The notes beneath the pieces were generated by a model. That model did no database searches and was not told where the DNA came from. It was given only the letters and a program-made list of their open reading frames with translations. A program made the position numbers and the translations under genes. DNA of 14,445 nt from a virus (Duplodnaviria > Heunggongvirae > Uroviricota > Caudoviricetes), in IMG/VR virus record IMGVR_UViG_2529292722_000020. One strand, 5' to 3'. Below are positions 936-14,445 of the stretch, piece by piece. The first letter of the stretch is position 1; every line of letters starts with the position of its first letter.

Positions 936-2147
936 TTAAATCTGCCCTGTATCTCGTGAGTCACTTGGTAATGGGCGTTTATTGGTTCGGCTTTCCAGTG
1001 CGCGGTTAAGCTGTGTCAGAAGCACAACAACGCAATCAAGCTCTTTGGCAAGGTTCTTCAGTCCTTTGGTGATCATGCCGTAAGCAAGGTCGTTGCGATC
1101 GGCCTTTTCAGCGGTCATTAGTGTCAGGTAATCGACCAGAATCATGCCAACACATCCTTTTTCTCGCTTGATTCGACGGCTTTCGCTGACGATTTGAGCC
1201 AGAGATAATCCCGGCGTGTCGTCGATGTAAAGCAGGTCGATTTCACTCAAGCGATTGGCTGTTTCGATCGCCCTGTTGAAGTCACCATCGTAATCACCCT
1301 GATAGCCGTCATCAGCGTCATTTGTCGCCGGAAGGTAAAAAATATTCGGGTTAACACCTGACTTCTGTCCTACCAGTTTTTCCAGTATCTGGTCACCGGG
1401 CATTTCAAGGCTGAACATCAGAGCGGGCTTTTTCTCATGCACTGCGCAGTTGATTGCCATCTGGCTGTATAGCGTCGTTTTCCCCATCTTAGGGCGAGCG
1501 CCAATGACAAACAGAGAGCCTTTCACCAGACCTTTCGGTGACAGCATCCTGTCCAGCGATGGGATCCCTGTGCTCATTCCCCGTTGTTCGCCTGATGGGT
1601 CAAATCGCTTCTCAAGGTCGCTAACCCAGTCTTCCATGACCTCGCCAAATGAGCGAAGGCCGCGACGCGATCCGGTTTTTGCATGGTCTGTCAGTTGCGT
1701 GAAAATCGCCTGAATAGCTTCGTACTTCTGCGTCGCAGTCATTCCGTTGCGGGAATAGAGCAATTCCGTCGCTTCAGTCATGCGGTTGATGGCGTAGCGT
1801 TCCATTGCGGTTTCGCGAACCTGCATTGCATAGGCAACGATGTTTGCGGCGCTCGGCGTGTTCTTTGCGATCTCAGCGATATAAGCAAAACCGCCAACAG
1901 ACGCCGTTAACGATTTACGCTCCAGTTCATCGAAAAGCGTCAGGCCATCTACTGGCTTTTGCTCCCGGTGCATTCTGGTTATTTCTTCGAAAAGGATTTT
2001 GTGTGATCGGCTGTAAAATGAATCAGGCTTCAGCATCGCCAGAACTTTCTGGACGCGCTCACTGCTGTCATCATCCAGAAGCAATCCACCAATCACCGCC
2101 TGCTCTGCCTCGATGCTATGGGGCGGCGCATAAAAATTATCGGTCAT
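936..2147 (-). CDS. Replicative DNA helicase, DnaB family (phage P22 gene 12 type), prematurely terminated
   Basis: PPHSIEAEQAVIGGLLLD N-terminal motif and Walker A GARPKMGKT. Start chosen at ATG 2147-2145 (MTDNFY) behind a GAGGGTG Shine-Dalgarno rather than the GTG at 2162. The product lacks about 70 C-terminal residues of the RecA-like domain. Confidence 0.8.
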   Translation of the reverse strand: MTDNFYAPPHSIEAEQAVIGGLLLDDDSSERVQKVLAMLKPDSFYSRSHKILFEEITRMHREQKPVDGLTLFDELERKSLTASVGGFAYIAEIAKNTPSAANIVAYAMQVRETAMERYAINRMTEATELLYSRNGMTATQKYEAIQAIFTQLTDHAKTGSRRGLRSFGEVMEDWVSDLEKRFDPSGEQRGMSTGIPSLDRMLSPKGLVKGSLFVIGARPKMGKTTLYSQMAINCAVHEKKPALMFSLEMPGDQILEKLVGQKSGVNPNIFYLPATNDADDGYQGDYDGDFNRAIETANRLSEIDLLYIDDTPGLSLAQIVSESRRIKREKGCVGMILVDYLTLMTAEKADRNDLAYGMITKGLKNLAKELDCVVVLLTQLNRALESRTNKRPLPSDSRDTGQI

Positions 2148-3027
2148 CGTGTTCACCCTCACGAACTTTCAGGTAGGTATTATCGTTAAGCAGGAAATCA
2201 AATCCCTTTTTGTGCCAGACGGTTCCTCGCTGATGGTTTGGGCGCTCTTCGAACATCCATCGGCAATTTTCGCCTACGTATCTCAAATAATTTCTCCAGT
2301 CCTGCATCGTGAACCCATGCCCGTCAAGCTGGCGGGTTATCACTCCGGCTTTGCGCCAGAACGTTCGGATCTGGTTTTTACGCTTGTCATTCAGTGCGCG
2401 GATTCTTGGCGCTTCAGGAAGGATTTCGTGGTAAGCATCGACAACATCCTGACAGCTAACGGAAGGTTTTTTCTTGTCAGACTTTTTGTCTGCTGTGGCA
2501 CTCTCTAATACGTCAGTATTAGAGATATTATTTATATTATTGTTTATGGACAACCGTTGGACAACCGTTGGACAATCTCCGCTGAGAGCCTCGCCATTAC
2601 TGGTGTTTGCGTTGGACAACCGTTGGACAACCGTTGGACAATTTTTTGCCTGAAAATCGTCATATTTAACGATTGTAAACAGGCTAAATTTCTTCCCCAT
2701 CGAGCAAATATTAAGCATCCCTTTCGACTCAAAAGTCCGTAATAAGCTCCGAACTTTGTTGTCGGGGATGAATGTTTCTCTGACCAGCGACGGGCGTCCA
2801 GTTATCATCTGACCGCGATCAACAGTTATCGGCCCGATATCCGTATTGACGACAGTAGATTCGTGATTAGCCTTGAGGATTAAGTGAAGCCAAAGATGTA
2901 CTGCCTGAGAGTCCTTATAGAGCCTGCTGTCCATAAACTGGCGGTGTATATAGGCATACCCCATACTGGATGCCTCCTGATGTTGTACAGGGTTATGCCT
3001 GTAATCAGCTAACTTAACGACGCCCAT
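2137..3027 (-). CDS. Replication initiator, lambda O / P22 gene 18-like, with origin iterons inside the coding sequence
   Basis: Position immediately upstream of and overlapping the helicase gene; the iterons encode a repeated CPTVVQRLSN peptide, as lambda ori does within O. Confidence 0.8.
   Translation of the reverse strand: MGVVKLADYRHNPVQHQEASSMGYAYIHRQFMDSRLYKDSQAVHLWLHLILKANHESTVVNTDIGPITVDRGQMITGRPSLVRETFIPDNKVRSLLRTFESKGMLNICSMGKKFSLFTIVKYDDFQAKNCPTVVQRLSNANTSNGEALSGDCPTVVQRLSINNNINNISNTDVLESATADKKSDKKKPSVSCQDVVDAYHEILPEAPRIRALNDKRKNQIRTFWRKAGVITRQLDGHGFTMQDWRNYLRYVGENCRWMFEERPNHQRGTVWHKKGFDFLLNDNTYLKVREGEHDDR
2546..2644. repeat. Replication origin iterons: two clusters of three 11-bp direct repeats (TTGGACAACCG), flanked by an AT-rich tract at 2505-2545
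   Basis: Direct reading: clusters at 2546-2578 and 2612-2644, separated by about 33 bp. The AT-rich block taatacgtcagtattagagatattatttatattattgtttat lies on the side expected for a lambda-type ori. Confidence 0.65.
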
Positions 3028-3175
3028 GTTTCACTCCTGCTTTGGCTAGTCTGTAAACACCAACAAGGCGCTCTGCGAACGCCCTGTTATTTGCTGCGGC
3101 TACCACTAATCCCTCAGGTGAATCAGGGTGTCGAATCTCTTCTTTTTCCTGGTATTTCTTACGACGTTTTGTCAT
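3014..3175 (-). CDS. Small basic protein (53 aa, MTKRRKKYQEKEEIRHPDSPEGLVVAAANNRAFAERLVGVYRLAKAGVKHGRR) between cII-like and O-like genes
   Basis: ATG at 3175-3173 sits 5 nt behind an AGGAG Shine-Dalgarno; the stop at 3016-3014 overlaps the O start by 14 nt. Found by manual translation. Confidence 0.35.
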   Translation of the reverse strand: MTKRRKKYQEKEEIRHPDSPEGLVVAAANNRAFAERLVGVYRLAKAGVKHGRR

Positions 3176-3207
3176 AATTACTCCTGTGGATTGATCCAGT
3201 AATTCCC

Positions 3208-3504
3208 TCAGAATTGCATATCAATTTGCTTAAAATCCTCGGTGGCGGCCGGGGATTTTTTCTTTGTGATTTCATCAAGCGCATACTTAAAAGCCCTGCT
3301 AATTGGACTGATGTCTGATGCCATTCCGAAAGCACACAAGACCGAAGCAATAAACCGCCAGTCCGTTCTGCTTATCTTCGATTCATGACAACCAATCATC
3401 TTTGCCAGACCGCGCTGAGTAAGCGTTGACAGGTTGATAAGTAAATCTGTTTCAGCGCGATCAACGTCACGCTGTGTTGGCTTGCTGTAGCTTGCTTGTG
3501 CCAT
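3208..3504 (-). CDS. CII-like transcriptional activator (P22 C1 type)
   Basis: C-terminus KKKSPAATEDFKQIDMQF resembles lambda CII KKRPAATERSEQIQMEF; gene lies downstream of cro in the rightward operon. Confidence 0.8.
   Translation of the reverse strand: MAQASYSKPTQRDVDRAETDLLINLSTLTQRGLAKMIGCHESKISRTDWRFIASVLCAFGMASDISPISRAFKYALDEITKKKSPAATEDFKQIDMQF
3237..3262 (+). terminator. Antisense intrinsic terminator inside the 3' end of the cII-like gene (candidate OOP-like RNA terminator)
   Basis: Stem CCTCGG (3237-3242), loop TGGCGG, stem CCGGGG (3249-3254, one G-U pair), then TTTTTT at 3257-3262, on the strand opposite cII. Confidence 0.45.
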
Positions 3505-3572
3505 TTGTTAATTTTCCTATATTGATATTGAGTTATAGCGGCACACCCAATGGATTTGCCGCTGATGTTTGC

Positions 3573-3614
3573 TCACCCGGTTAGAGGTGAAAGGCCAGAA
3601 CTGTTAAAGAGCAA
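3573..3614 (-). promoter_or_regulatory. Candidate nutR: boxA (GCTCTTTAACAG) plus boxB hairpin with CUAACC loop
   Basis: Minus-strand boxA at 3612-3601 directly after the cro stop; hairpin UCACCU-CUAACC-GGGUGA at 3590-3573. Confidence 0.45.
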
Positions 3615-3619
3615 TTTGC

Positions 3620-3805
3620 TTATGCCGCTTGGCGGTAAGCACTTTCTTGATACTTCAGGGCGCCAGCTGTAACGATTTCCAATCGATAGGCGTCTTTCTC
3701 TGGGATAACTTCTTTCCACTGAGAGACTGCTGCATCGCTAATGCCTAGTGCTTTAGCAACAGCACGCTGGGTTCCGAAGTGGTCAATAACATCTTTTTTG
3801 TACAT
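3620..3805 (-). CDS. cro: Cro repressor, P22 type
   Basis: 61-aa product MYKKDVIDHFGTQRAVAKALGISDAAVSQWKEVIPEKDAYRLEIVTAGALKYQESAYRQAA matches my recollection of P22 Cro almost residue for residue; divergent from the repressor gene. Confidence 0.9.
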   Translation of the reverse strand: MYKKDVIDHFGTQRAVAKALGISDAAVSQWKEVIPEKDAYRLEIVTAGALKYQESAYRQAA

Positions 3806-3885
3806 AGACTCGCTCCGAAATTAAAGAACACTTAAATTATCCACCAAAGGAATCTTAAGTCAAGTTTATTTAAGATGTCTTAACT
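3806..3885. promoter_or_regulatory. Right operator region (OR) with divergent PR/PRM between cro and c2
   Basis: Palindromic sites with TTAAGA / TCTTAA half-sites: ATTAAAGAACACTTAAAT near 3820-3838 and TTTAAGATGTCTTAA at 3869-3883, the latter abutting the c2 ATG. Confidence 0.6.
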
Positions 3886-4536
3886 ATGAATACACAACTG
3901 ATGGGTGAGCGTATTCGCGCTCGCAGAAAAGAACTCAAGATTAGGCAGGCTGCCCTTGGCAAGATGGTTGGCGTGTCTAATGTTGCTATTTCCCAATGGG
4001 AGCGATCTGAAACTGAGCCCAATGGCGAAAACCTATTGGCCTTAGCCAAGGCTTTGCAGTGCTCCCCTGATTACCTGTTGAAAGGAGAGGATAGTCTTTC
4101 AAACATTGCCTATCACAGCAGGCATGATCCAAGAGGTTCGTATCCTCTAATTAGTTGGGTAAGCGCAGGATGTTGGATGGAAGCTGTAGAGCCATATCAT
4201 AGGCGTGCAATAGATAACTGGTACGACACAACGGTAGATTGTTCTGAAGACTCTTTTTGGCTCGACGTTAAAGGCGATTCAATGACTGCCCCGGCAGGAC
4301 TGAGTATTCCTGAGGGGATGATTATTCTCGTCGACCCAGAAGTCGAACCACGTAATGGAAAGCTGGTAGTCGCCAAACTTGAAGGGGAAAACGAGGCGAC
4401 ATTCAAAAAGTTAGTTATTGATGCCGGTAGAAAATTCCTGAAACCACTCAATCCACAATACCCAATGATTGAAATCAATGGGAACTGTAAAATCATTGGC
4501 GTTGTCGTTGATGCCAAGCTAGCAAACCTTCCTTAA
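3886..4536 (+). CDS. c2: Phage repressor, P22 c2 type (N-terminal HTH domain plus C-terminal LexA/S24-like autocleavage domain)
   Basis: 216 aa; N-terminus MNTQLMGERIRARRKELKIRQAALGKMVGVSNVAISQWERSETEPNGENLLALAKALQCSPDYLLKG matches remembered P22 c2; the C-terminal half has the GDSM...K serine-lysine dyad pattern. Confidence 0.9.
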   Translation: MNTQLMGERIRARRKELKIRQAALGKMVGVSNVAISQWERSETEPNGENLLALAKALQCSPDYLLKGEDSLSNIAYHSRHDPRGSYPLISWVSAGCWMEAVEPYHRRAIDNWYDTTVDCSEDSFWLDVKGDSMTAPAGLSIPEGMIILVDPEVEPRNGKLVVAKLEGENEATFKKLVIDAGRKFLKPLNPQYPMIEINGNCKIIGVVVDAKLANLP

Positions 4537-4556
4537 GGGGCTTTCGCCCCTTTTTT
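4537..4556 (+). terminator. Intrinsic terminator after the repressor gene
   Basis: GGGGC-TTTC-GCCCC hairpin followed by TTTTTT, immediately after the TAA at 4534-4536. Confidence 0.7.
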
Positions 4557-4599
4557 ATTTCCCGTTAAAAATCAAAGACAAACTAAATTCACGCCCATA

Positions 4600-4656
4600 A
4601 AATTAAGTTTTCTTCAAAAATGCACTTGACCAATAAATTAAGAAGTCTTAAATTTA
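4600..4656 (+). promoter_or_regulatory. PL promoter with overlapping OL operators
   Basis: -35 TTGACC (4626-4631), 17-bp spacer, -10 TAAATT (4649-4654); palindrome ATTAAGAAGTCTTAAAT (4637-4653) overlaps the promoter, with a degenerate second site near 4603-4616. Confidence 0.5.
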
Positions 4657-4699
4657 AGCCATCAGCAGGACGCTGGAAGCCAAACGGAACAGATTGGCA

Positions 4700-4740
4700 G
4701 GCTCTTTAACATCGACGGACTCTCAACCTAACCGTTGAGA
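4700..4740 (+). promoter_or_regulatory. Candidate nutL: boxA (GGCTCTTTAAC) plus boxB hairpin (7-bp stem, CUAACC loop)
   Basis: GCTCTTTAAC at 4701-4710 matches the boxA consensus; hairpin TCTCAAC-CTAACC-GTTGAGA at 4721-4740 has no following U-run, so it is not a terminator. Lies between PL and the N-like gene. Confidence 0.5.
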
Positions 4741-4850
4741 CCAGAACTTGAGTGGTTTTGGGGATGGCGCGAATTGCAGCTGCAAGACAGCGATCGAGAA
4801 GATAAGCACCTCGACGCGTCATGCGCCAAAGCCACTTAAAGGAGACCATC

Positions 4851-5156
4851 ATGGTAACCATTGTCTGGAAAGAATCCAAAGGTACGGCAAAAAGCCGCTA
4901 CAAAGCTCGCAGAGCAGAACTTATTGCCGAGCGACGCAGTAATGAAGCACTGGCGCGAAAAATTGCGCTAAAGCTCTCTGGTTGCGTCAGAGCAGACAAA
5001 GCAGCATCACTAGGAAGCCTTTGCTGCAAGAAGAAAGAAGAAGTCGTTCGAAAAAATAGAAGTATTTATTACAAAGATTCAAACCCGTTAGGAAACAAAA
5101 TTCATGCAGTCCAAAAAATAAAATTGTACAGTAAACTACCGTACGGTGCTTATTGA
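4851..5156 (+). CDS. N: N-like transcription antiterminator with arginine-rich motif (phage 21 N type)
   Basis: ATG at 4851 sits 7 nt after AAGGAG; the N-terminal GTAKSRYKARRAELIAERR matches the arginine-rich boxB-binding peptide I recall for phage 21 N; first gene downstream of PL and nutL. The track's upstream start at 4821 has no Shine-Dalgarno. Confidence 0.7.
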   Translation: MVTIVWKESKGTAKSRYKARRAELIAERRSNEALARKIALKLSGCVRADKAASLGSLCCKKKEEVVRKNRSIYYKDSNPLGNKIHAVQKIKLYSKLPYGAY

Positions 5157-5158
5157 GT

Positions 5159-5497
5159 ATGCTTATGGTGAAAAAGACTATTTATGTTAATCCTGACCGC
5201 GGACAAAACAGAAAAGTATCTGATAGAGGTCTTACATCTCGAGACAGGAGGAGAATAGCGAGATGGGAAAAAAGGATAGCATATGCATTAAAAAACGGTG
5301 TAACACCTGGATTTAATGCTATAGATGACGGTCCTGAATATAAAATTAATGAAGAACCAATGGACAAAGTTGACAAAGCATTAGCAACACCATTTCCTCG
5401 CGATGTCGAAAAAATTGAAGATGAAAAATATGAGGATGTAATGCACAGAGTTGTTAATCACGCTCACCAACGAAATCCAAATAAAAAATGGTCATAG
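5159..5497 (+). CDS. Hypothetical charged protein (about 112 aa), AT-rich accessory gene
   Basis: ORF immediately after N, followed directly by an intrinsic terminator. Start uncertain (TTG 5153, ATG 5159 or ATG 5165); no family recognised. Confidence 0.45.
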   Translation: MLMVKKTIYVNPDRGQNRKVSDRGLTSRDRRRIARWEKRIAYALKNGVTPGFNAIDDGPEYKINEEPMDKVDKALATPFPRDVEKIEDEKYEDVMHRVVNHAHQRNPNKKWS

Positions 5498-5517
5498 CCC
5501 ACTTCGGTGGGTTTTTT
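5498..5517 (+). terminator. Intrinsic terminator
   Basis: CCCAC-TTCG-GTGGG hairpin followed by TTTTTT, starting one base after the TAG stop. Confidence 0.7.
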
Positions 5518-5630
5518 ATTGTCTGAACAAATCTAATTTACTACCGCAAGCCACGCAGTGAAATGGGTGTGACTTGTGTTGGTCGCCAGAAAATGAAATT
5601 AGGCAGCAAACCACTTATTTGAGGTGAGAT

Positions 5631-6101
5631 ATGACAAAATCATGGAGCGTACCTTTTCCTGAATCAGAAACTGAACATGATGGAATGCCTGTTTTCTGGA
5701 GATTCCAGGCGACAGTTGAAGAAGATGGGATAAAAATATTCGCACTTCAATATATAGCTTTTCATCAGACAGAGCATTATGCATGGTTGGTTCCTGCGCA
5801 TTGGATTGTTGATTTTAAACCAGCACCAAATCAGTGGTTACAGGAATGGAAACAAAAGAGAAATAGATATGCAATTAAGAAAGTAGCAAAAAATGCAGAA
5901 AGATCTTTTGCATTCCCAACGAAGAAACTTGCCATTGAAAGTTTATTGCGCCGGAAGAAATACCATTTAATGAGAATCAAACAAGATTTGGCTGTTGTAT
6001 CAACTCTTGTTGATGGGATGAAGAATATTGATACATCAACACCAGATATTGAATATAACTTTGGGCACAACCAAGAAACAGAAAATTGGGTATTTTATTA
6101 G
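5631..6101 (+). CDS. Hypothetical protein (156 aa), AT-rich moron gene
   Basis: GAGGTGAG Shine-Dalgarno 5 nt before ATG 5631; lies between two intrinsic terminators; no family recognised. Confidence 0.55.
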   Translation: MTKSWSVPFPESETEHDGMPVFWRFQATVEEDGIKIFALQYIAFHQTEHYAWLVPAHWIVDFKPAPNQWLQEWKQKRNRYAIKKVAKNAERSFAFPTKKLAIESLLRRKKYHLMRIKQDLAVVSTLVDGMKNIDTSTPDIEYNFGHNQETENWVFY

Positions 6102-6720: not shown

Positions 6721-7428
6721 ATGGATTTGAATAAATTCGATGAGCCATTCAGCCCTGAAGATATCGAATGGCGAATACAGCAAAGCGGTAAAACACGCGA
6801 TGGCAAGGGGTGGGCTATGGTGCTGGCTTATGTCACGAACCGGGCAATCATGAAACGCCTGGACGATGTTTGCGGCAAAGCAGGATGGCGCAATGAATAC
6901 CGCGATATTCCCAACAACGGCGGCGTTGAATGCGGCATATCAATAAAGATTGATTCCGAATGGGTAACCAAATGGGATGCTGCTGAAAACACGCAGGTAG
7001 AAGCCGTCAAAGGTGGTCGTTCAGGTGCAATGAAGCGCGCTGCCGTTCAGTGGGGAATCGGTCGGTATCTGTATAACCTTGAGGAAGGTTTCGCACAAAC
7101 ATCTCTCGATAAAAAGCAGGGATGGCACAGGGCAAAACTCAAGGATGGAACAGGATTTTACTGGCTCCCTCCATCGCTGCCGGGATGGGCAATACCAGCA
7201 TCAGATAACAAACCATCACCAGAAAATACCAACCAGAAATCTCCATCGGTTGACTGCGAACAAATCCTGAAAGACTTCAGCGATTATGCGTCAACAGAAA
7301 CTGACAAGAAAAAACTCATCGAGCGTTATCAGCGTGACTGGCAATTAATGGCTGGCAACGAGGAGGCGCAGGCTAAATGCGTTCAGGTAATGAACATCAG
7401 AGTTAACGAACTAAAACAGGCGGCATAA
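6721..7428 (+). CDS. Rad52-family single-strand annealing protein (Sak-like recombinase)
   Basis: GAGGTGA Shine-Dalgarno before ATG 6721; AYVTNRAIMKRLDDVCGKAGW and GAMKRAAVQWGIGRYLYN match Rad52 N-domain patterns ([20 protein letters not shown] and KRALRSFGNALGN); occupies the bet position. Confidence 0.7.
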   Translation: MDLNKFDEPFSPEDIEWRIQQSGKTRDGKGWAMVLAYVTNRAIMKRLDDVCGKAGWRNEYRDIPNNGGVECGISIKIDSEWVTKWDAAENTQVEAVKGGRSGAMKRAAVQWGIGRYLYNLEEGFAQTSLDKKQGWHRAKLKDGTGFYWLPPSLPGWAIPASDNKPSPENTNQKSPSVDCEQILKDFSDYASTETDKKKLIERYQRDWQLMAGNEEAQAKCVQVMNIRVNELKQAA

Positions 7429-7896
7429 ATGTCTCACTTGGACGGAATTATTAAAAGATTCGAGTCCAGCTACAAAGTTAATGAAACAACAGGTTGCTGG
7501 GAGTCTACCTATTCAAAAAACAAAGGAGGATACACAAAATTTGTAGCCTTTGGCGTAACAATGCTTTCTCATCGGGTTGCTTTTGAGCTTTATCACTCCC
7601 CCATTCCATCTGGGAAGATGGTTTGCCACAAATGCGATAACCCATGCTGCGTTAATCCTGAACATCTCTTTTTAGGTAGCGCGCAAGAAAACATGGACGA
7701 CAAGATAGCAAAAGGAAGGCATCGTGGAGCCAAGAAAGGTCATGCTCATCATGGTGCAAAATTAACAGAGTGGCAGGGTATAGAAATTAGGAAAAGACTC
7801 TCTGAAAAAGAGAGTCAGTACAAGATAGCAAAAGACATGGGTGTATCTCAATCAATTATAAGCAACATAAAAACTGGCAAGAGGTGGAGCAAATGA
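7429..7896 (+). CDS. HNH homing-type endonuclease with C-terminal HTH
   Basis: HNH motif [26 protein letters not shown]; start abuts the SSAP stop (TAAATG); the end overlaps the SSB start. Confidence 0.8.
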
Positions 7897-8399
7897 GTTC
7901 TCGCGGGATAAATAAGGTGATTATCCTTGGTCGGGTAGGACAAGACCCGGAAGTTCGATACTCACCATCAGGAACAGCGTTCGCTAACCTGACAATAGCC
8001 ACGTCAGAACAATGGCGAGATAAAAATACTGGCGAGCAAAAGGAATTGACTGAATGGCATCGTGTTGCTGTATCCGGGAAACTGGCTGAGGTCGTGGGGC
8101 AGTATGTGAAAAAAGGTGATCAGATTTATTTCGAGGGAATGCTGAGAACCAGAAAATGGAAAGACCAGTCAGGGCAAGACCGTTACACAACCGAGGTTCA
8201 TGTCGGAATTAATGGCGTGATGCAAATGCTTGGCGGCATTGGCGACAGCAAACAACAAGCAGCCAGCAGGCAATCACAGAAGCCACAGCAGCAATCATCA
8301 CCAGCACAACACAACGAACCTCCGATGGATTTTGACGACGATATACCCTTTGCACCAGTAACTCTCCCCTTCCCTCGTCACGCTATTCACGCAATTTAA
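7893..8399 (+). CDS. ssb: Single-stranded DNA-binding protein SSB, with a 15-aa extension after the DDDIPF tail
   Basis: [23 protein letters not shown]...TEWHRVAV...[11 protein letters not shown] closely resembles E. coli SSB; GAGGTG Shine-Dalgarno 6 nt before ATG 7893. Confidence 0.9.
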
Positions 8400-12467: not shown

Positions 12468-12668
12468 ATGCAACACGAACTACAGCCTGATTCACTGGTT
12501 GATTTGAAATTCATCATGGCCGATACTGGCTTTGGTAAAACCTTCATCTACGACCGGATTAAGTCCGGCGACCTGCCAAAAGCCAAAGTTATCCACGGGC
12601 GAGCAAGATGGTTATATCGTGACCATTGTGAATTCAAAAATAAGCTCTTAAGCCGCGCCAATGGGTAA
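12468..12668 (+). CDS. AlpA/Xis-family excisionase-like DNA-binding protein
   Basis: 66 aa with winged-helix pattern ...MADTGFGKTFIYDRIKSGDLPKAKVIHGRARWLYRDHCEF...; sits at the integration-proximal end of the prophage. Confidence 0.7.
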   Translation: MQHELQPDSLVDLKFIMADTGFGKTFIYDRIKSGDLPKAKVIHGRARWLYRDHCEFKNKLLSRANG

Positions 12669-12741
12669 AATAGCGGGTAAAATATTTCTCACATCTAAAA
12701 AACACCATTCTAATCAATCCCCTGCCGCGTCAAGTAGATGT

Positions 12742-12756
12742 CTGCAGGGGACACCA
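12742..12756 (+). other. 3'-terminal fragment of tRNA-Arg argW (acceptor 3' strand plus CCA); host side of the attachment junction
   Basis: CTGCAGGGGACACCA matches the argW 3' end as I recall it; it is the direct continuation of the fragment at 12433-12448. Confidence 0.55.
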
Positions 12757-13197
12757 GATACCCTTCAAACGAAATCTACCTTCACCCCGTAAAAGATGGG
12801 TTTGGCAGCACACTTGCCTTATATCTACTCATTTTTACTGCAACAGGTTGAAATCTCAGCACTGTCAGAAAGCGCTGATGACTAAACAGCCCTGGGCCGG
12901 GCGATGTAACCATCACACAGAATCCTGATAGCGAAATATGGCGTGACTCGATACTTCACTCCGCAATGCATTCCTTGATGAATTCGCAGGACCGTGATAC
13001 ACGGGACAGGTCACTGAATGACGACAATGTCCTGGAAATCAGCGAACCGCGCATCTGAAGTACATTTGAGCGACTGTACCAGAACATGAATGAGGCGTTT
13101 GGATTAGGCGATTATTAGCAGGGCTAAGCATTTTACTATTATTATTTTCCGGTTGAGGGATATAGAGCTATCGACAACAACCGGAAAAAGTTTACGT

Positions 13198-14445
13198 CTA
13201 TATTGCTGAAGGTACAGGCGTTTCCATAACTATTTGCTCGCGTTTTTTACTCAAGAAGAAAATGCCAAATAGCAACATCAGGCAGACAATACCCGAAATT
13301 GCGAAGAAAACTGTCTGGTAGCCTGCGTGGTCAAAGAGTATCCCAGTCGGCGTTGAAAGCAGCACAATCCCAAGCGAACTGGCAATTTGAAAACCAATCA
13401 GAAAGATCGTCGACGACAGGCGCTTATCAAAGTTTGCCACGCTGTATTTGAAGACGGATATGACACAAAGTGGAACCTCAATGGCATGTAACAACTTCAC
13501 TAATGAAATAATCCAGGGGTTAACGAACAGCGCGCAGGAAAGGATACGCAACGCCATAATCACAACTCCGATAAGTAATGCATTTTTTGGCCCTACCCGA
13601 TTCACAAAGAAAGGAATAATCGCCATGCACAGCGCTTCGAGTACCACCTGGAATGAGTTGAGATAACCATACAGGCGCGTTCCTACATCGTGTGATTCGA
13701 ATAAACCTGCATAAAAGACAGGAAAAAGTTGTTGATCAAAAATGTTATAGAAAGACCACGTCCCCACAATAAATATGACGAAAACCCAGAAGTTTCGATC
13801 CTTGAAAACTGCGATAAAATCCTCTTTTTTTACCCCTCCCGCATCTGCCGCTACGCACTGGTGATCCTTATCTTTAAAACGCATGTTGATCATCATAAAT
13901 ACAGCGCCAAATAGCGAGACCAACCAGAAGTTGATATGGGGACTGATACTAAAAAATATGCCGGCAAAGAACGCGCCAATAGCATAGCCAAAAGATCCCC
14001 AGGCGCGCGCTGTTCCATATTCGAAATGAAAATTTCGCGCCATTTTTTCGGTGAAGCTATCAAGCAAACCGCATCCCGCCAGATACCCCAAGCCAAAAAA
14101 TAGCGCCCCCAGAATTAGACCTACAGAAAAATTGCTTTGCAGTAACGGTTCATAAACGTAAATCATAAACGGTCCGGTCAAGACCAGGATGAAACTCATA
14201 CACCAGATGAGCGGTTTCTTCAGACCGAGTTTATCCTGAACGATGCCGTAGAACATCATAAATAGAATGCTGGTAAACTGGTTGACCGAATAAAGTGTAC
14301 CTAATTCCGTCCCTGTCAACCCTAGATGTCCTTTCAGCCAAATAGCGTATAACGACCACCACAGCGACCAGGAAATAAAAAAGAGAAATGAGTAACTGGA
14401 TGCAAAACGATAGTACGCATTTCTGAATGGAATATTCAGTGCCAT
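13198..14445 (-). CDS. cscB: Sucrose:H+ symporter CscB (LacY-family oligosaccharide permease)
   Basis: 415-aa multi-transmembrane protein; N-terminus MALNIPFRNAYYRFASSYSFLFFISWSLWW matches my recollection of E. coli CscB. The window ends exactly on its start codon. Confidence 0.85.
   Translation of the reverse strand: MALNIPFRNAYYRFASSYSFLFFISWSLWWSLYAIWLKGHLGLTGTELGTLYSVNQFTSILFMMFYGIVQDKLGLKKPLIWCMSFILVLTGPFMIYVYEPLLQSNFSVGLILGALFFGLGYLAGCGLLDSFTEKMARNFHFEYGTARAWGSFGYAIGAFFAGIFFSISPHINFWLVSLFGAVFMMINMRFKDKDHQCVAADAGGVKKEDFIAVFKDRNFWVFVIFIVGTWSFYNIFDQQLFPVFYAGLFESHDVGTRLYGYLNSFQVVLEALCMAIIPFFVNRVGPKNALLIGVVIMALRILSCALFVNPWIISLVKLLHAIEVPLCVISVFKYSVANFDKRLSSTIFLIGFQIASSLGIVLLSTPTGILFDHAGYQTVFFAISGIVCLMLLFGIFFLSKKREQIVMETPVPSAI

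What the first reader, a model, noticed from the sequence alone, without database searches (positions are those of the whole stretch)
3573..4740. Mosaic control region: P22-type repressor, cro and operators combined with a phage 21-type N and CUAACC-loop nut sites
The repressor and Cro match P22 proteins from memory and the operators have TTAAGA half-sites, yet the antiterminator carries the phage 21-type arginine-rich motif. Both candidate nut hairpins, nutL at 4721-4740 and nutR at 3590-3573 on the minus strand, have the same CUAACC loop, each preceded by a boxA-like GCTCTTTAAC. This gives internally consistent N/nut specificity alongside a heterologous immunity module.
Basis: partly seen in the sequence, partly recalled or inferred. 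Interest (0 to 1): 0.35.

Follow-up and report, generated by a model that had tools for sequence, protein, structure and literature searches.

The report
Phage 21 immunity region in prophage
This stretch is the long-known immunity and antitermination control region of coliphage 21 (the "imm21" cassette also carried by BL21(DE3)), sitting in an E. coli prophage, so it is ordinary rather than a new mosaic.

Summary
These are a P22-like repressor and Cro, operators with TTAAGA half-sites, an N protein with the phage 21 arginine-rich motif, and two boxA + CUAACC-loop hairpins. The hairpins lie at 4721-4740 (+) and 3590-3573 (-).

The interpretation as a mosaic with a heterologous immunity module does not hold. 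Window 3168-5073 is collinear with phage 21 itself at 97% nucleotide identity. The repressor and Cro are 100% identical in amino acids to phage 21's own proteins. Both hairpins fall exactly on the nutL and nutR stem-loops annotated in the phage 21 genome. Phage 21's native repressor and Cro simply are P22-like (93.5% and 98.4%).

The same cassette is in lambda imm21, DE3, mEp235, Kapi1 and HK629. About 240 complete E. coli genome records hold it at 99% identity or more.

- The last ~40 codons of N are replaced by an HK022-type segment that also brings the nun gene. The displaced N 3' end survives downstream.
- The replication genes are not phage 21's lambda-type O/P.

Both arrangements already occur in sequenced phages. 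Verdict: already known, low interest.

The parts
3208..3504 (-). cII-type activator gene, first gene after nutR/tR1 in the rightward (here minus-strand) early operon
   Evidence: Pfam Phage_CII 112 bits. It is 87.8% identical to phage 21 CII; the C-terminus diverges.
3573..3590 (-). nutR boxB hairpin UCACCU-CUAACC-GGGUGA
   Evidence: Identical to phage 21 and coincides with its annotated nutR stem_loop. Folds at -8.2 kcal/mol.
3603..3612 (-). nutR boxA GCUCUUUAAC
   Evidence: Exact match. Overlaps the boxA-R feature of the phage 21 record. Shared with P22, CUS-3, N7 and Gally.
3620..3805 (-). cro (lytic repressor), 61 aa
   Evidence: 61/61 identical to phage 21 Cro and 60/61 to P22 Cro. Pfam P22_Cro.
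3820..3885 (.). Right operator region with three operators (3820-3837, 3842-3860, 3868-3885). They overlap PR (-35 TTGACT 3863-3858, -10 GATAAT 3841-3836, minus strand) and the repressor maintenance promoter region.
   Evidence: Identical to phage 21; 4 mismatches to P22 over 91 nt. Operator features are in the phage 21 record. Promoter scan.
3886..4536 (+). Prophage repressor (LexA-like, HTH + S24 autopeptidase), 216 aa
   Evidence: 216/216 identical to the phage 21 ORF and 202/216 to P22 C2, with residues 17-53 including the HTH identical. Pfam HTH_3 + Peptidase_S24.
4535..4552 (+). Terminator-like hairpin plus T-run after the repressor gene
   Evidence: Scan. A terminator is annotated at the same place in phage 21.
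4572..4654 (.). Left operator region with three operators (4572-4589, 4601-4618, 4636-4653). They overlap PL (-35 TTGACC 4626-4631, -10 TAAATT 4649-4654). By homology, the PL start is about 4661.
4701..4710 (+). nutL boxA GCUCUUUAAC
4721..4740 (+). nutL boxB hairpin UCUCAAC-CUAACC-GUUGAGA
   Evidence: Identical to phage 21 and coincides with its annotated nutL stem_loop. Folds at -9.3 kcal/mol, z = -2.8.
4851..5156 (+). N antiterminator, 101 aa. Residues 1-57 are identical to phage 21 N, including the ARM. Over the C-terminal ~40 aa the window switches from phage 21 sequence to the HK022-type variant.
   Evidence: 100/101 identical to mEp235 N.
5104..5132 (+). Probable constitutive nun promoter (-35 ATGCAG 5104-5109, -10 TACAGT 5127-5132), lying inside the 3' end of the N coding sequence
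   Evidence: Inferred only by sequence identity with the nun promoter annotated in phage O276/HK022. Not tested here.
5159..5497 (+). nun, an HK022-type transcription arrest factor that targets lambda-type boxB
   Evidence: 107/109 identical to PDB 6ALG chain N. The ARM is 26/26 identical to the PDB 1HJI peptide. 112/112 identical to mEp235 Nun.
5496..5513 (+). Terminator-like hairpin plus T-run after nun
5536..5622 (+). Displaced remnant of the phage 21/CUS-3-type N 3' end (IYYRKPRSEMGVTCVGRQKMKLGSKPLI*), with no start codon
   Evidence: Window 5536-5633 is 96.9% identical to phage 21 L001 3065-3162. Translation.

Best explanation
The region is the native immunity and early-antitermination cassette of coliphage 21 (imm21), carried by a P22/HK620-like prophage next to cscB in an E. 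coli chromosome.

How it works, by homology with phage 21, P22 and lambda:
- In the lysogen the LexA-like repressor (3886-4536) binds three operators on each side and shuts off PR (leftward in this window) and PL (rightward).
- After RecA-stimulated self-cleavage of the repressor, PL and PR fire.
- Cro (3805-3620) then turns down the repressor promoter.
- The PL transcript carries nutL (boxA 4701-4710, boxB 4721-4740) and encodes N (4851-5156).
- The arginine-rich helix of N (residues about 8-29) binds the CUAACC-loop boxB hairpins of nutL and nutR (3590-3573).
- With boxA and the host Nus factors, N makes RNA polymerase resistant to the downstream terminators, so the delayed-early genes are expressed.

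Shown here: sequence identity with phage 21 for every element, hairpin formation, and matched changes of ARM and boxB across relatives. Inferred from the literature on phage 21, lambda and P22: the binding and antitermination steps themselves.
For: (1) Window 3168-5073 aligns to phage 21 OL657228.1 in one block at 97.2% identity. Query 3500-5073 is 98.9% identical to phage 21, lambda imm21 and DE3, and 99.7% to mEp235.

(2) The repressor is 216/216 and Cro 61/61 identical to phage 21. All six operators are identical.

(3) nutL, nutR and boxA coordinates coincide with the features annotated in the phage 21 record.

(4) The N ARM is 22/22 identical to the peptide whose complex is solved as PDB 1NYB. 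I recall that entry as the complex with phi21 boxB RNA, Cilley & Williamson 2003, cited in PMC4509934.

(5) Specificity co-varies on one immunity backbone:
- P22 keeps cro, operators, the repressor gene and boxA at 83.6% DNA identity. That homology stops at window 3602 and 4715, just past each boxA, and P22 has GACAA-loop boxB plus the unrelated gp24 ARM.
- CUS-3, N7 and Gally (repressor 211/217) have the same boxA but a third boxB (UCCCGC-CGAAAU-GCGGGA) at both nut positions, and a third ARM (NARNRRRARRQAQREQ).

(6) Within the window the two boxB stems differ at 5 pairs by changes on both sides, while the loops are identical (sequence).

(7) mEp235, with the same cassette and the same hybrid N, is a plaque-forming, inducible phage (PMC3442831).
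Against: - Nothing contradicts the identification.
- The C-terminal ~40 residues of N differ from phage 21 N. In lambda N, from my own knowledge, this part contacts RNA polymerase, so full N activity in this particular prophage is inferred, not shown.
- An IS100 sits in the nin region at the window's left end, so the prophage as a whole may be impaired.
- Pfam's N_peptide model scores below its cut-off (18.4 vs 27.9 bits).
- The isolated-hairpin z-scores are modest, and they vanish when boxA and the spacer are included. Folding energy alone would not establish the hairpins.
Confidence: 0.95

Rival explanations
1. This would be a recombinant control region in which a P22-derived immunity module (repressor, cro, operators) was joined to a phage 21-derived N/nut module. 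That would make it a noteworthy heterologous combination.
For: The repressor and Cro are very close to P22's (93.5% and 98.4%). P22 homology ends abruptly just past each boxA, so relative to P22 the boxB/N parts are indeed a different module.
Against: Repressor, Cro and operators are identical to phage 21's own. The DNA is much closer to phage 21 (97-99%) than to P22 (83.6%) across the very genes called 'P22-type'. No junction separates the immunity genes from N/nut relative to phage 21. The P22/21 relationship is old literature.
Confidence: 0.03
2. The cassette is a decayed, non-functional relic. Replacing N's C-terminus with the HK022-type segment would have inactivated antitermination, and the nut sites would persist only by inertia in a cryptic prophage.
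For: The N C-terminus diverges from phage 21 N at 21 of 98 aligned positions, all after residue 57. An IS100 interrupts the prophage nearby. RefSeq annotates N as hypothetical.
Against: - All ORFs and sites are intact and identical to functional phages.
- The same hybrid N occurs in mEp235, which plates and is inducible.
- It also occurs in mEpX1, Kapi1, PA28 and many Stx1a phages.
- The variant C-terminus keeps the IYY...QKIKL.SK motif shared with phage 21 and lambda N.
Confidence: 0.08

Closest known systems
Coliphage 21 immunity region (imm21), as in phage 21 OL657228.1, lambda imm21 and the DE3 prophage of BL21(DE3)
   Same: Collinear from the cII gene (3208-3504) to codon ~74 of N, at 97-99% DNA identity. 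Repressor, Cro, six operators, PL/PR, boxA and both boxB hairpins are identical. N residues 1-57 are identical.
   Different: N's C-terminal ~40 aa, and the presence of nun downstream. The cII C-terminus diverges. The replication genes left of 3168 are a non-lambda initiator plus a DnaB-like helicase, not phage 21's lambda-like O/P.
Enterobacteria phage mEp235 (JQ182731) and Kapi1 (MT813197)
   Same: 99.7% and 99.5% identity over 3500-5200, including the hybrid N and nun. mEp235 N is 100/101 and Nun 112/112 identical. Kapi1 integrates at argW, which from memory lies next to the csc locus; I did not check argW in this genome.
   Different: Only point differences in this region. This window is a chromosomal prophage copy with an IS100 nearby.
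Salmonella phage P22 immC (c2, cro, OR/OL) with gene 24/nut
   Same: Same repressor/Cro family with an identical HTH, near-identical operators, the same boxA and the same gene order.
   Different: The P22 boxB hairpins (GCGCUGACAAAGCGC and CCGCCGACAACGCGG) and the gp24 ARM are unrelated to those here. Homology stops within a few bases after each boxA.
Lambda N/nut antitermination
   Same: Same logic and layout: an ARM at the N terminus, boxA + boxB downstream of PL and PR, and a conserved C-terminal motif (…YY/WYSKP…GRQKIK…) in phage 21 N.
   Different: The ARM and boxB sequences differ: a GAAAA/GAAGA pentaloop in lambda versus a CUAACC hexaloop here. N identity is only 23%.
HK022 nun locus
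   Same: Window 5040-5514 is 96.4% identical to HK022. It includes nun and the ~120 nt upstream that hold the annotated nun promoter.
   Different: In the HK022 region examined there is no N 5' half upstream of that piece, and the O276 record annotates HK022 putL antiterminator RNA downstream of pL. Here the same upstream piece is read in frame as the C-terminus of a phage 21-type N.

Membership tests
Phage 21 immunity cassette (imm21) | Repressor and Cro of phage 21 sequence | tested here: met
   216/216 and 61/61 identical.
Phage 21 immunity cassette (imm21) | Phage 21 operator sequences at OR and OL | tested here: met
   All six sites are identical to OL657228.1.
Phage 21 immunity cassette (imm21) | Phage 21 nutL and nutR (boxA + CUAACC-loop boxB) at the annotated positions | tested here: met
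   Identical sequence, and the coordinates map one-to-one.
Phage 21 immunity cassette (imm21) | Immunity phenotype: the lysogen is immune to lambda imm21 / phage 21 | not testable with these tools
   Needs a plating experiment.
Lambda-type N/nut processive antitermination | N-terminal arginine-rich motif matching a characterised N | tested here: met
   22/22 identical to the phage 21 N peptide of PDB 1NYB.
Lambda-type N/nut processive antitermination | boxA followed by a boxB hairpin in both early transcripts, downstream of PL and PR | tested here: met
Lambda-type N/nut processive antitermination | ARM and boxB change together in relatives | tested here: met
   Three ARM/boxB pairs (21-type, P22-type, CUS-3-type) occur on one repressor/boxA backbone.
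Lambda-type N/nut processive antitermination | C-terminal RNA-polymerase-binding region of N intact | tested here: inconclusive
   The C-terminus is replaced by the HK022-type variant. The motif IYY...QKIKL.SK is retained. Viability of mEp235 with the same allele argues for function.
Lambda-type N/nut processive antitermination | Curated family model match | tested here: not met
   Pfam N_peptide 18.4 bits, below its cut-off of 27.9. No NCBIfam hit. This reflects weak models for these short, divergent proteins.
P22 immC (C2/Cro) family | C2-type repressor with the same HTH, plus a P22_Cro-fold Cro | tested here: met
   202/216 identical with the HTH residues identical. Pfam P22_Cro 96.9 bits.
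P22 early control region as a whole | gp24-type N and GACAA-loop boxB | tested here: not met
   N versus gp24 is 26/76 identical, alignment score 24. The boxB sequences are unrelated.
HK022 Nun (side finding) | Nun ARM and the C-terminal arrest segment ending KKWS | tested here: met
   107/109 identical to 6ALG chain N and 26/26 to the 1HJI peptide.

The most novel reading that the evidence does not exclude

The nun cassette (5074-5535) is inserted at the 'IYY' codons of N. It supplies its own replacement N C-terminus, and the probable nun promoter lies inside that coding sequence. The original N 3' end is left as a remnant at 5536-5622. HK022 retains only the replacement N 3' end plus nun.

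Two readings are not excluded:
- This N-nun tandem is the ancestral state from which the N-less HK022 locus derived.
- The co-travelling N C-terminus is functionally matched to Nun, for example so that the resident phage's own N-modified polymerase is not arrested.

The second, functional part is pure speculation.
Probability: 0.15. Interest if true: 0.3.

Novelty: already known. Interest (0 to 1): 0.07.

Why it matters
It matters little as a discovery. The cassette is one of the classical lambdoid immunity regions and is present in BL21(DE3). From my own knowledge it has been studied since the 1970s-80s; the paper titles were confirmed.

It is still a clean illustration of two points:
- N specificity is carried by two small patches, boxB at nutR and boxB + ARM at nutL/N. 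These are swapped around a conserved repressor/boxA backbone.
- Automated annotation still labels N and Nun as 'hypothetical protein'.

The practical value is correct annotation of this ETEC prophage. It carries imm21 immunity, phage 21-type N/nut, and an HK022-type Nun that probably excludes phages with lambda-type nut sites.

Tried and rejected
- Rfam scan of the whole window found no family, so nut sites are not matched by any Rfam model.
- tRNA scan for an argW fragment at the prophage end found none in the window.
- My first operator pattern (TTAAGN6CTTAA, up to 2 mismatches) was mis-specified. It found no operators and no excess over chance. The operators were then located by mapping the phage 21 annotation and aligning.
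- Folding the nut sites with boxA and spacer included gave unremarkable z-scores (-1.3 and +0.1). Only the isolated hairpins stand out. The support therefore comes from homology and co-variation, not from energy.
- King et al. 2000, on the nun promoters, is not held in the library. Promoter positions were taken from the O276 GenBank annotation instead.
- I considered that the missing integrase next to xis/torI meant a truncated prophage. I rejected this because the KplE1/HK620/CUS-3 type module transcribes int and the RDF separately, and from my own recollection they sit at opposite prophage ends.
- I did not run the large protein-database searches or structure prediction. Near-identical annotated phage genomes and solved structures already answered the question.

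Full report
**What is there**

The window is 100% identical to a stretch of the E. coli ETEC-2264 chromosome, and to two other genomes. It covers the early regions of a lambdoid prophage. The prophage ends with a torI-type excisionase gene next to the sucrose permease gene cscB.

In this orientation the leftward early operon of the phage runs on the + strand. Its order is repressor 3886-4536, PL about 4626-4654, nutL, N 4851-5156, nun, recombination genes and xis. The rightward operon runs on the - strand. Its order is PR, cro 3805-3620, nutR, cII 3504-3208, then replication genes.

**Check of the observation**

- The repressor is 202/216 identical to P22 C2, and Cro is 60/61 identical to P22 Cro.
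- Six 18-19 bp operators carry TTAAG(A) half-sites and flank the repressor gene.
- N residues 8-29 match 22/22 the phage 21 N peptide of PDB entry 1NYB.
- The exact decamer GCTCTTTAAC occurs only twice in 14.4 kb, at 4701-4710 (+) and 3612-3603 (-).
- Each decamer is followed 10-12 nt later by a hairpin with a CUAACC loop: UCUCAAC-CUAACC-GUUGAGA at 4721-4740 and UCACCU-CUAACC-GGGUGA at 3590-3573.
- The two stems differ by changes on both sides at five pairs, while the loop is invariant. That pattern fits a hairpin whose loop is what the protein reads.

**What it is**

A megablast of 3500-5200 against phage genomes gave three groups of hits:

| Phage(s) | Identity | Coverage |
|---|---|---|
| mEp235 | 99.7% | full length |
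| Kapi1 | 99.5% | full length |
| phage 21, lambda imm21, lambda h434 imm21, DE3 | 98.9% | first 1574 nt |

A direct alignment shows one collinear block, window 3168-5073 = phage 21 at 97.2%. The repressor and Cro are 100% identical in amino acids to phage 21's own. All six operators are identical.

The region is therefore the native imm21 cassette.

That is a property of phage 21, not evidence of a new recombinant. The literature titles confirm how old the comparison is:

- Poteete et al. [quoted passage not shown] - Cilley & Williamson 2003, the phi21 N peptide-boxB structure.

**How it most likely works**

These steps are inferred from the established lambda, phage 21 and P22 model. Only sequence-level support was obtained here.

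1. The repressor occupies OR and OL and silences PR and PL.
2. On induction the S24 autopeptidase domain (Pfam) cleaves the repressor.
3. PL and PR then fire.
4. N is made from the PL transcript.
5. The ARM of N binds the boxB hairpins in the nascent nutL and nutR RNAs. Together with boxA and the Nus factors, it converts RNA polymerase to a terminator-resistant form.

**Comparative support for the N/boxB pairing**

The pairing changes together on one backbone.

- P22 shares cro, the operators, the repressor gene and boxA at 83.6% DNA identity. That homology stops at window 3602 and 4715, a few bases beyond each boxA. P22's boxB hairpins and gp24 ARM are unrelated.
- CUS-3, N7 and Gally have a repressor 211/217 identical to this one and the same boxA. 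At both nut positions they carry a third boxB, UCCCGC-CGAAAU-GCGGGA. Their N has a third ARM, while its middle and C-terminal parts resemble phage 21 N.
- PA28, an Stx2a phage with a 933W-type repressor, carries the phage 21-type ARM together with the CUAACC nutL.

So the ARM + boxB module is the unit that is exchanged. The truly 'heterologous' combination exists elsewhere, not here.

**Where this prophage really departs from phage 21**

(a) *Left of 3168.* The replication genes are a non-lambda initiator (2137-3027) plus a DnaB-like helicase (936-2162, extended to 708-2144 in the RefSeq annotation). The initiator gene contains two clusters of three 11-bp TGGACAACCGT repeats. Phage 21 has lambda-like O/P instead.

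(b) *Within N.* Phage 21 identity ends at 5073 and resumes at 5536-5633, at 96.9%. The intervening 462 bp, together with the ~35 bp before it, is 96.4% identical to the HK022 nun locus. The inserted piece contains:

- an alternative N C-terminus (…IYYKDSNPLGNKIHAVQKIKLYSKLPYGAY*);
- nun at 5159-5497, which is 107/109 identical to the Nun chain of PDB 6ALG and 26/26 to the ARM peptide of 1HJI;
- a terminator-like hairpin.

The displaced N 3' end, IYYRKPRSEMGVTCVGRQKMKLGSKPLI*, remains as an unexpressed remnant at 5536-5622.

In the HK022 region examined, the same alternative N 3' end lies upstream of nun without an N 5' half. The O276 record places the nun promoter inside that piece, which corresponds to window 5104-5132.

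HK022 Nun is known to bind lambda boxB and to arrest polymerase on lambda DNA (PMC5386594). From my own recollection of Robert et al. 1987, it does not act on phage 21 nut sites. That would make an N21 + Nun pair self-compatible. This prophage therefore probably antiterminates on its own CUAACC nut sites and excludes phages with lambda-type nut sites.

The arrangement is already present in sequenced phages: mEp235, mEpX1, Kapi1, PA28 and many Stx1a phages. At least 80% of it is found in 213 of 5426 complete E. coli genomes. mEp235 forms plaques and is inducible, which argues that the hybrid N works.

**How common and how novel**

About 240 complete E. coli genome records hold the 1.3-kb core (3560-4860) at 99% identity or more, and 489 genomes hold at least 80% of its length. 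The cassette is also in BL21(DE3) through the DE3 prophage. It is already known in every respect.

**Verdict**

- Observation: confirmed.
- Interpretation: partly supported. The identities and the N/nut consistency are right. The claim of a mosaic with a heterologous immunity module is wrong.
- Novelty: already known.
- Interest: low.

The N-nun junction is a modestly interesting side observation, recorded under 'noticed in passing'.

Noticed in passing
window 5040-5640: An HK022-type nun cassette is inserted at the 'IYY' codons of N. It supplies a replacement N C-terminus (to 5156), nun (5159-5497) and a terminator-like hairpin (5496-5513). The original phage 21/CUS-3-type N 3' end is left as a remnant at 5536-5622. 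The probable nun promoter (5104-5132, by homology to the O276 annotation) lies inside the N coding sequence. HK022 has the same upstream piece but no N 5' half in the region examined.
   Followed up: partly
window 4851-5497; locus L005 7851-8497: RefSeq/PGAP annotates both N and Nun as 'hypothetical protein' in ETEC-2264. Pfam N_peptide scores below its cut-off, and no Pfam or NCBIfam model hits Nun. This is an annotation gap for two well-characterised proteins.
   Followed up: yes
window 1-~222; locus L005 1421-3222: An IS100 (IS21-family; istA/istB) is inserted in the nin region of the prophage, just left of the window's first phage genes. It may affect prophage viability.
   Followed up: no
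window 2547-2579 and 2613-2645: Two clusters of three tandem 11-bp repeats (TGGACAACCGT), 66 bp apart, lie inside the O-like replication gene (2137-3027, minus strand). They are probably the origin iterons.
   Followed up: partly
window 7429-7896: An HNH endonuclease ORF is wedged between the Rad52-like recombinase gene (6721-7428) and ssb (annotated at 7893-8399), abutting the former and overlapping the latter. It looks like a homing-endonuclease insertion.
   Followed up: no
window 12468-13198: The torI-type excisionase gene (12468-12668) is the last phage gene before cscB (13198-14445, minus strand). There is no integrase beside it and no tRNA fragment was detected. This fits the KplE1/HK620/CUS-3 recombination module, in which int and the RDF are transcribed separately (PMC2951348).
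   Followed up: partly
loci L006-L008 (N7, CUS-3, Gally), nutL ~1504-1550 and nutR ~413-365: These P22-like coliphages have a repressor 97% identical to this one and the same boxA. They carry a third boxB type (UCCCGC-CGAAAU-GCGGGA) and a third N ARM (NARNRRRARRQAQREQ). I did not check whether this N/boxB pair has been characterised.
   Followed up: no
locus L001 1965-2537 (phage 21 record OL657228.1): The phage 21 record annotates the repressor from an internal Met (190 aa), and two operators are both labelled OR2. The full 216-aa ORF matching P22 C2 is open in phage 21 as well.
   Followed up: partly
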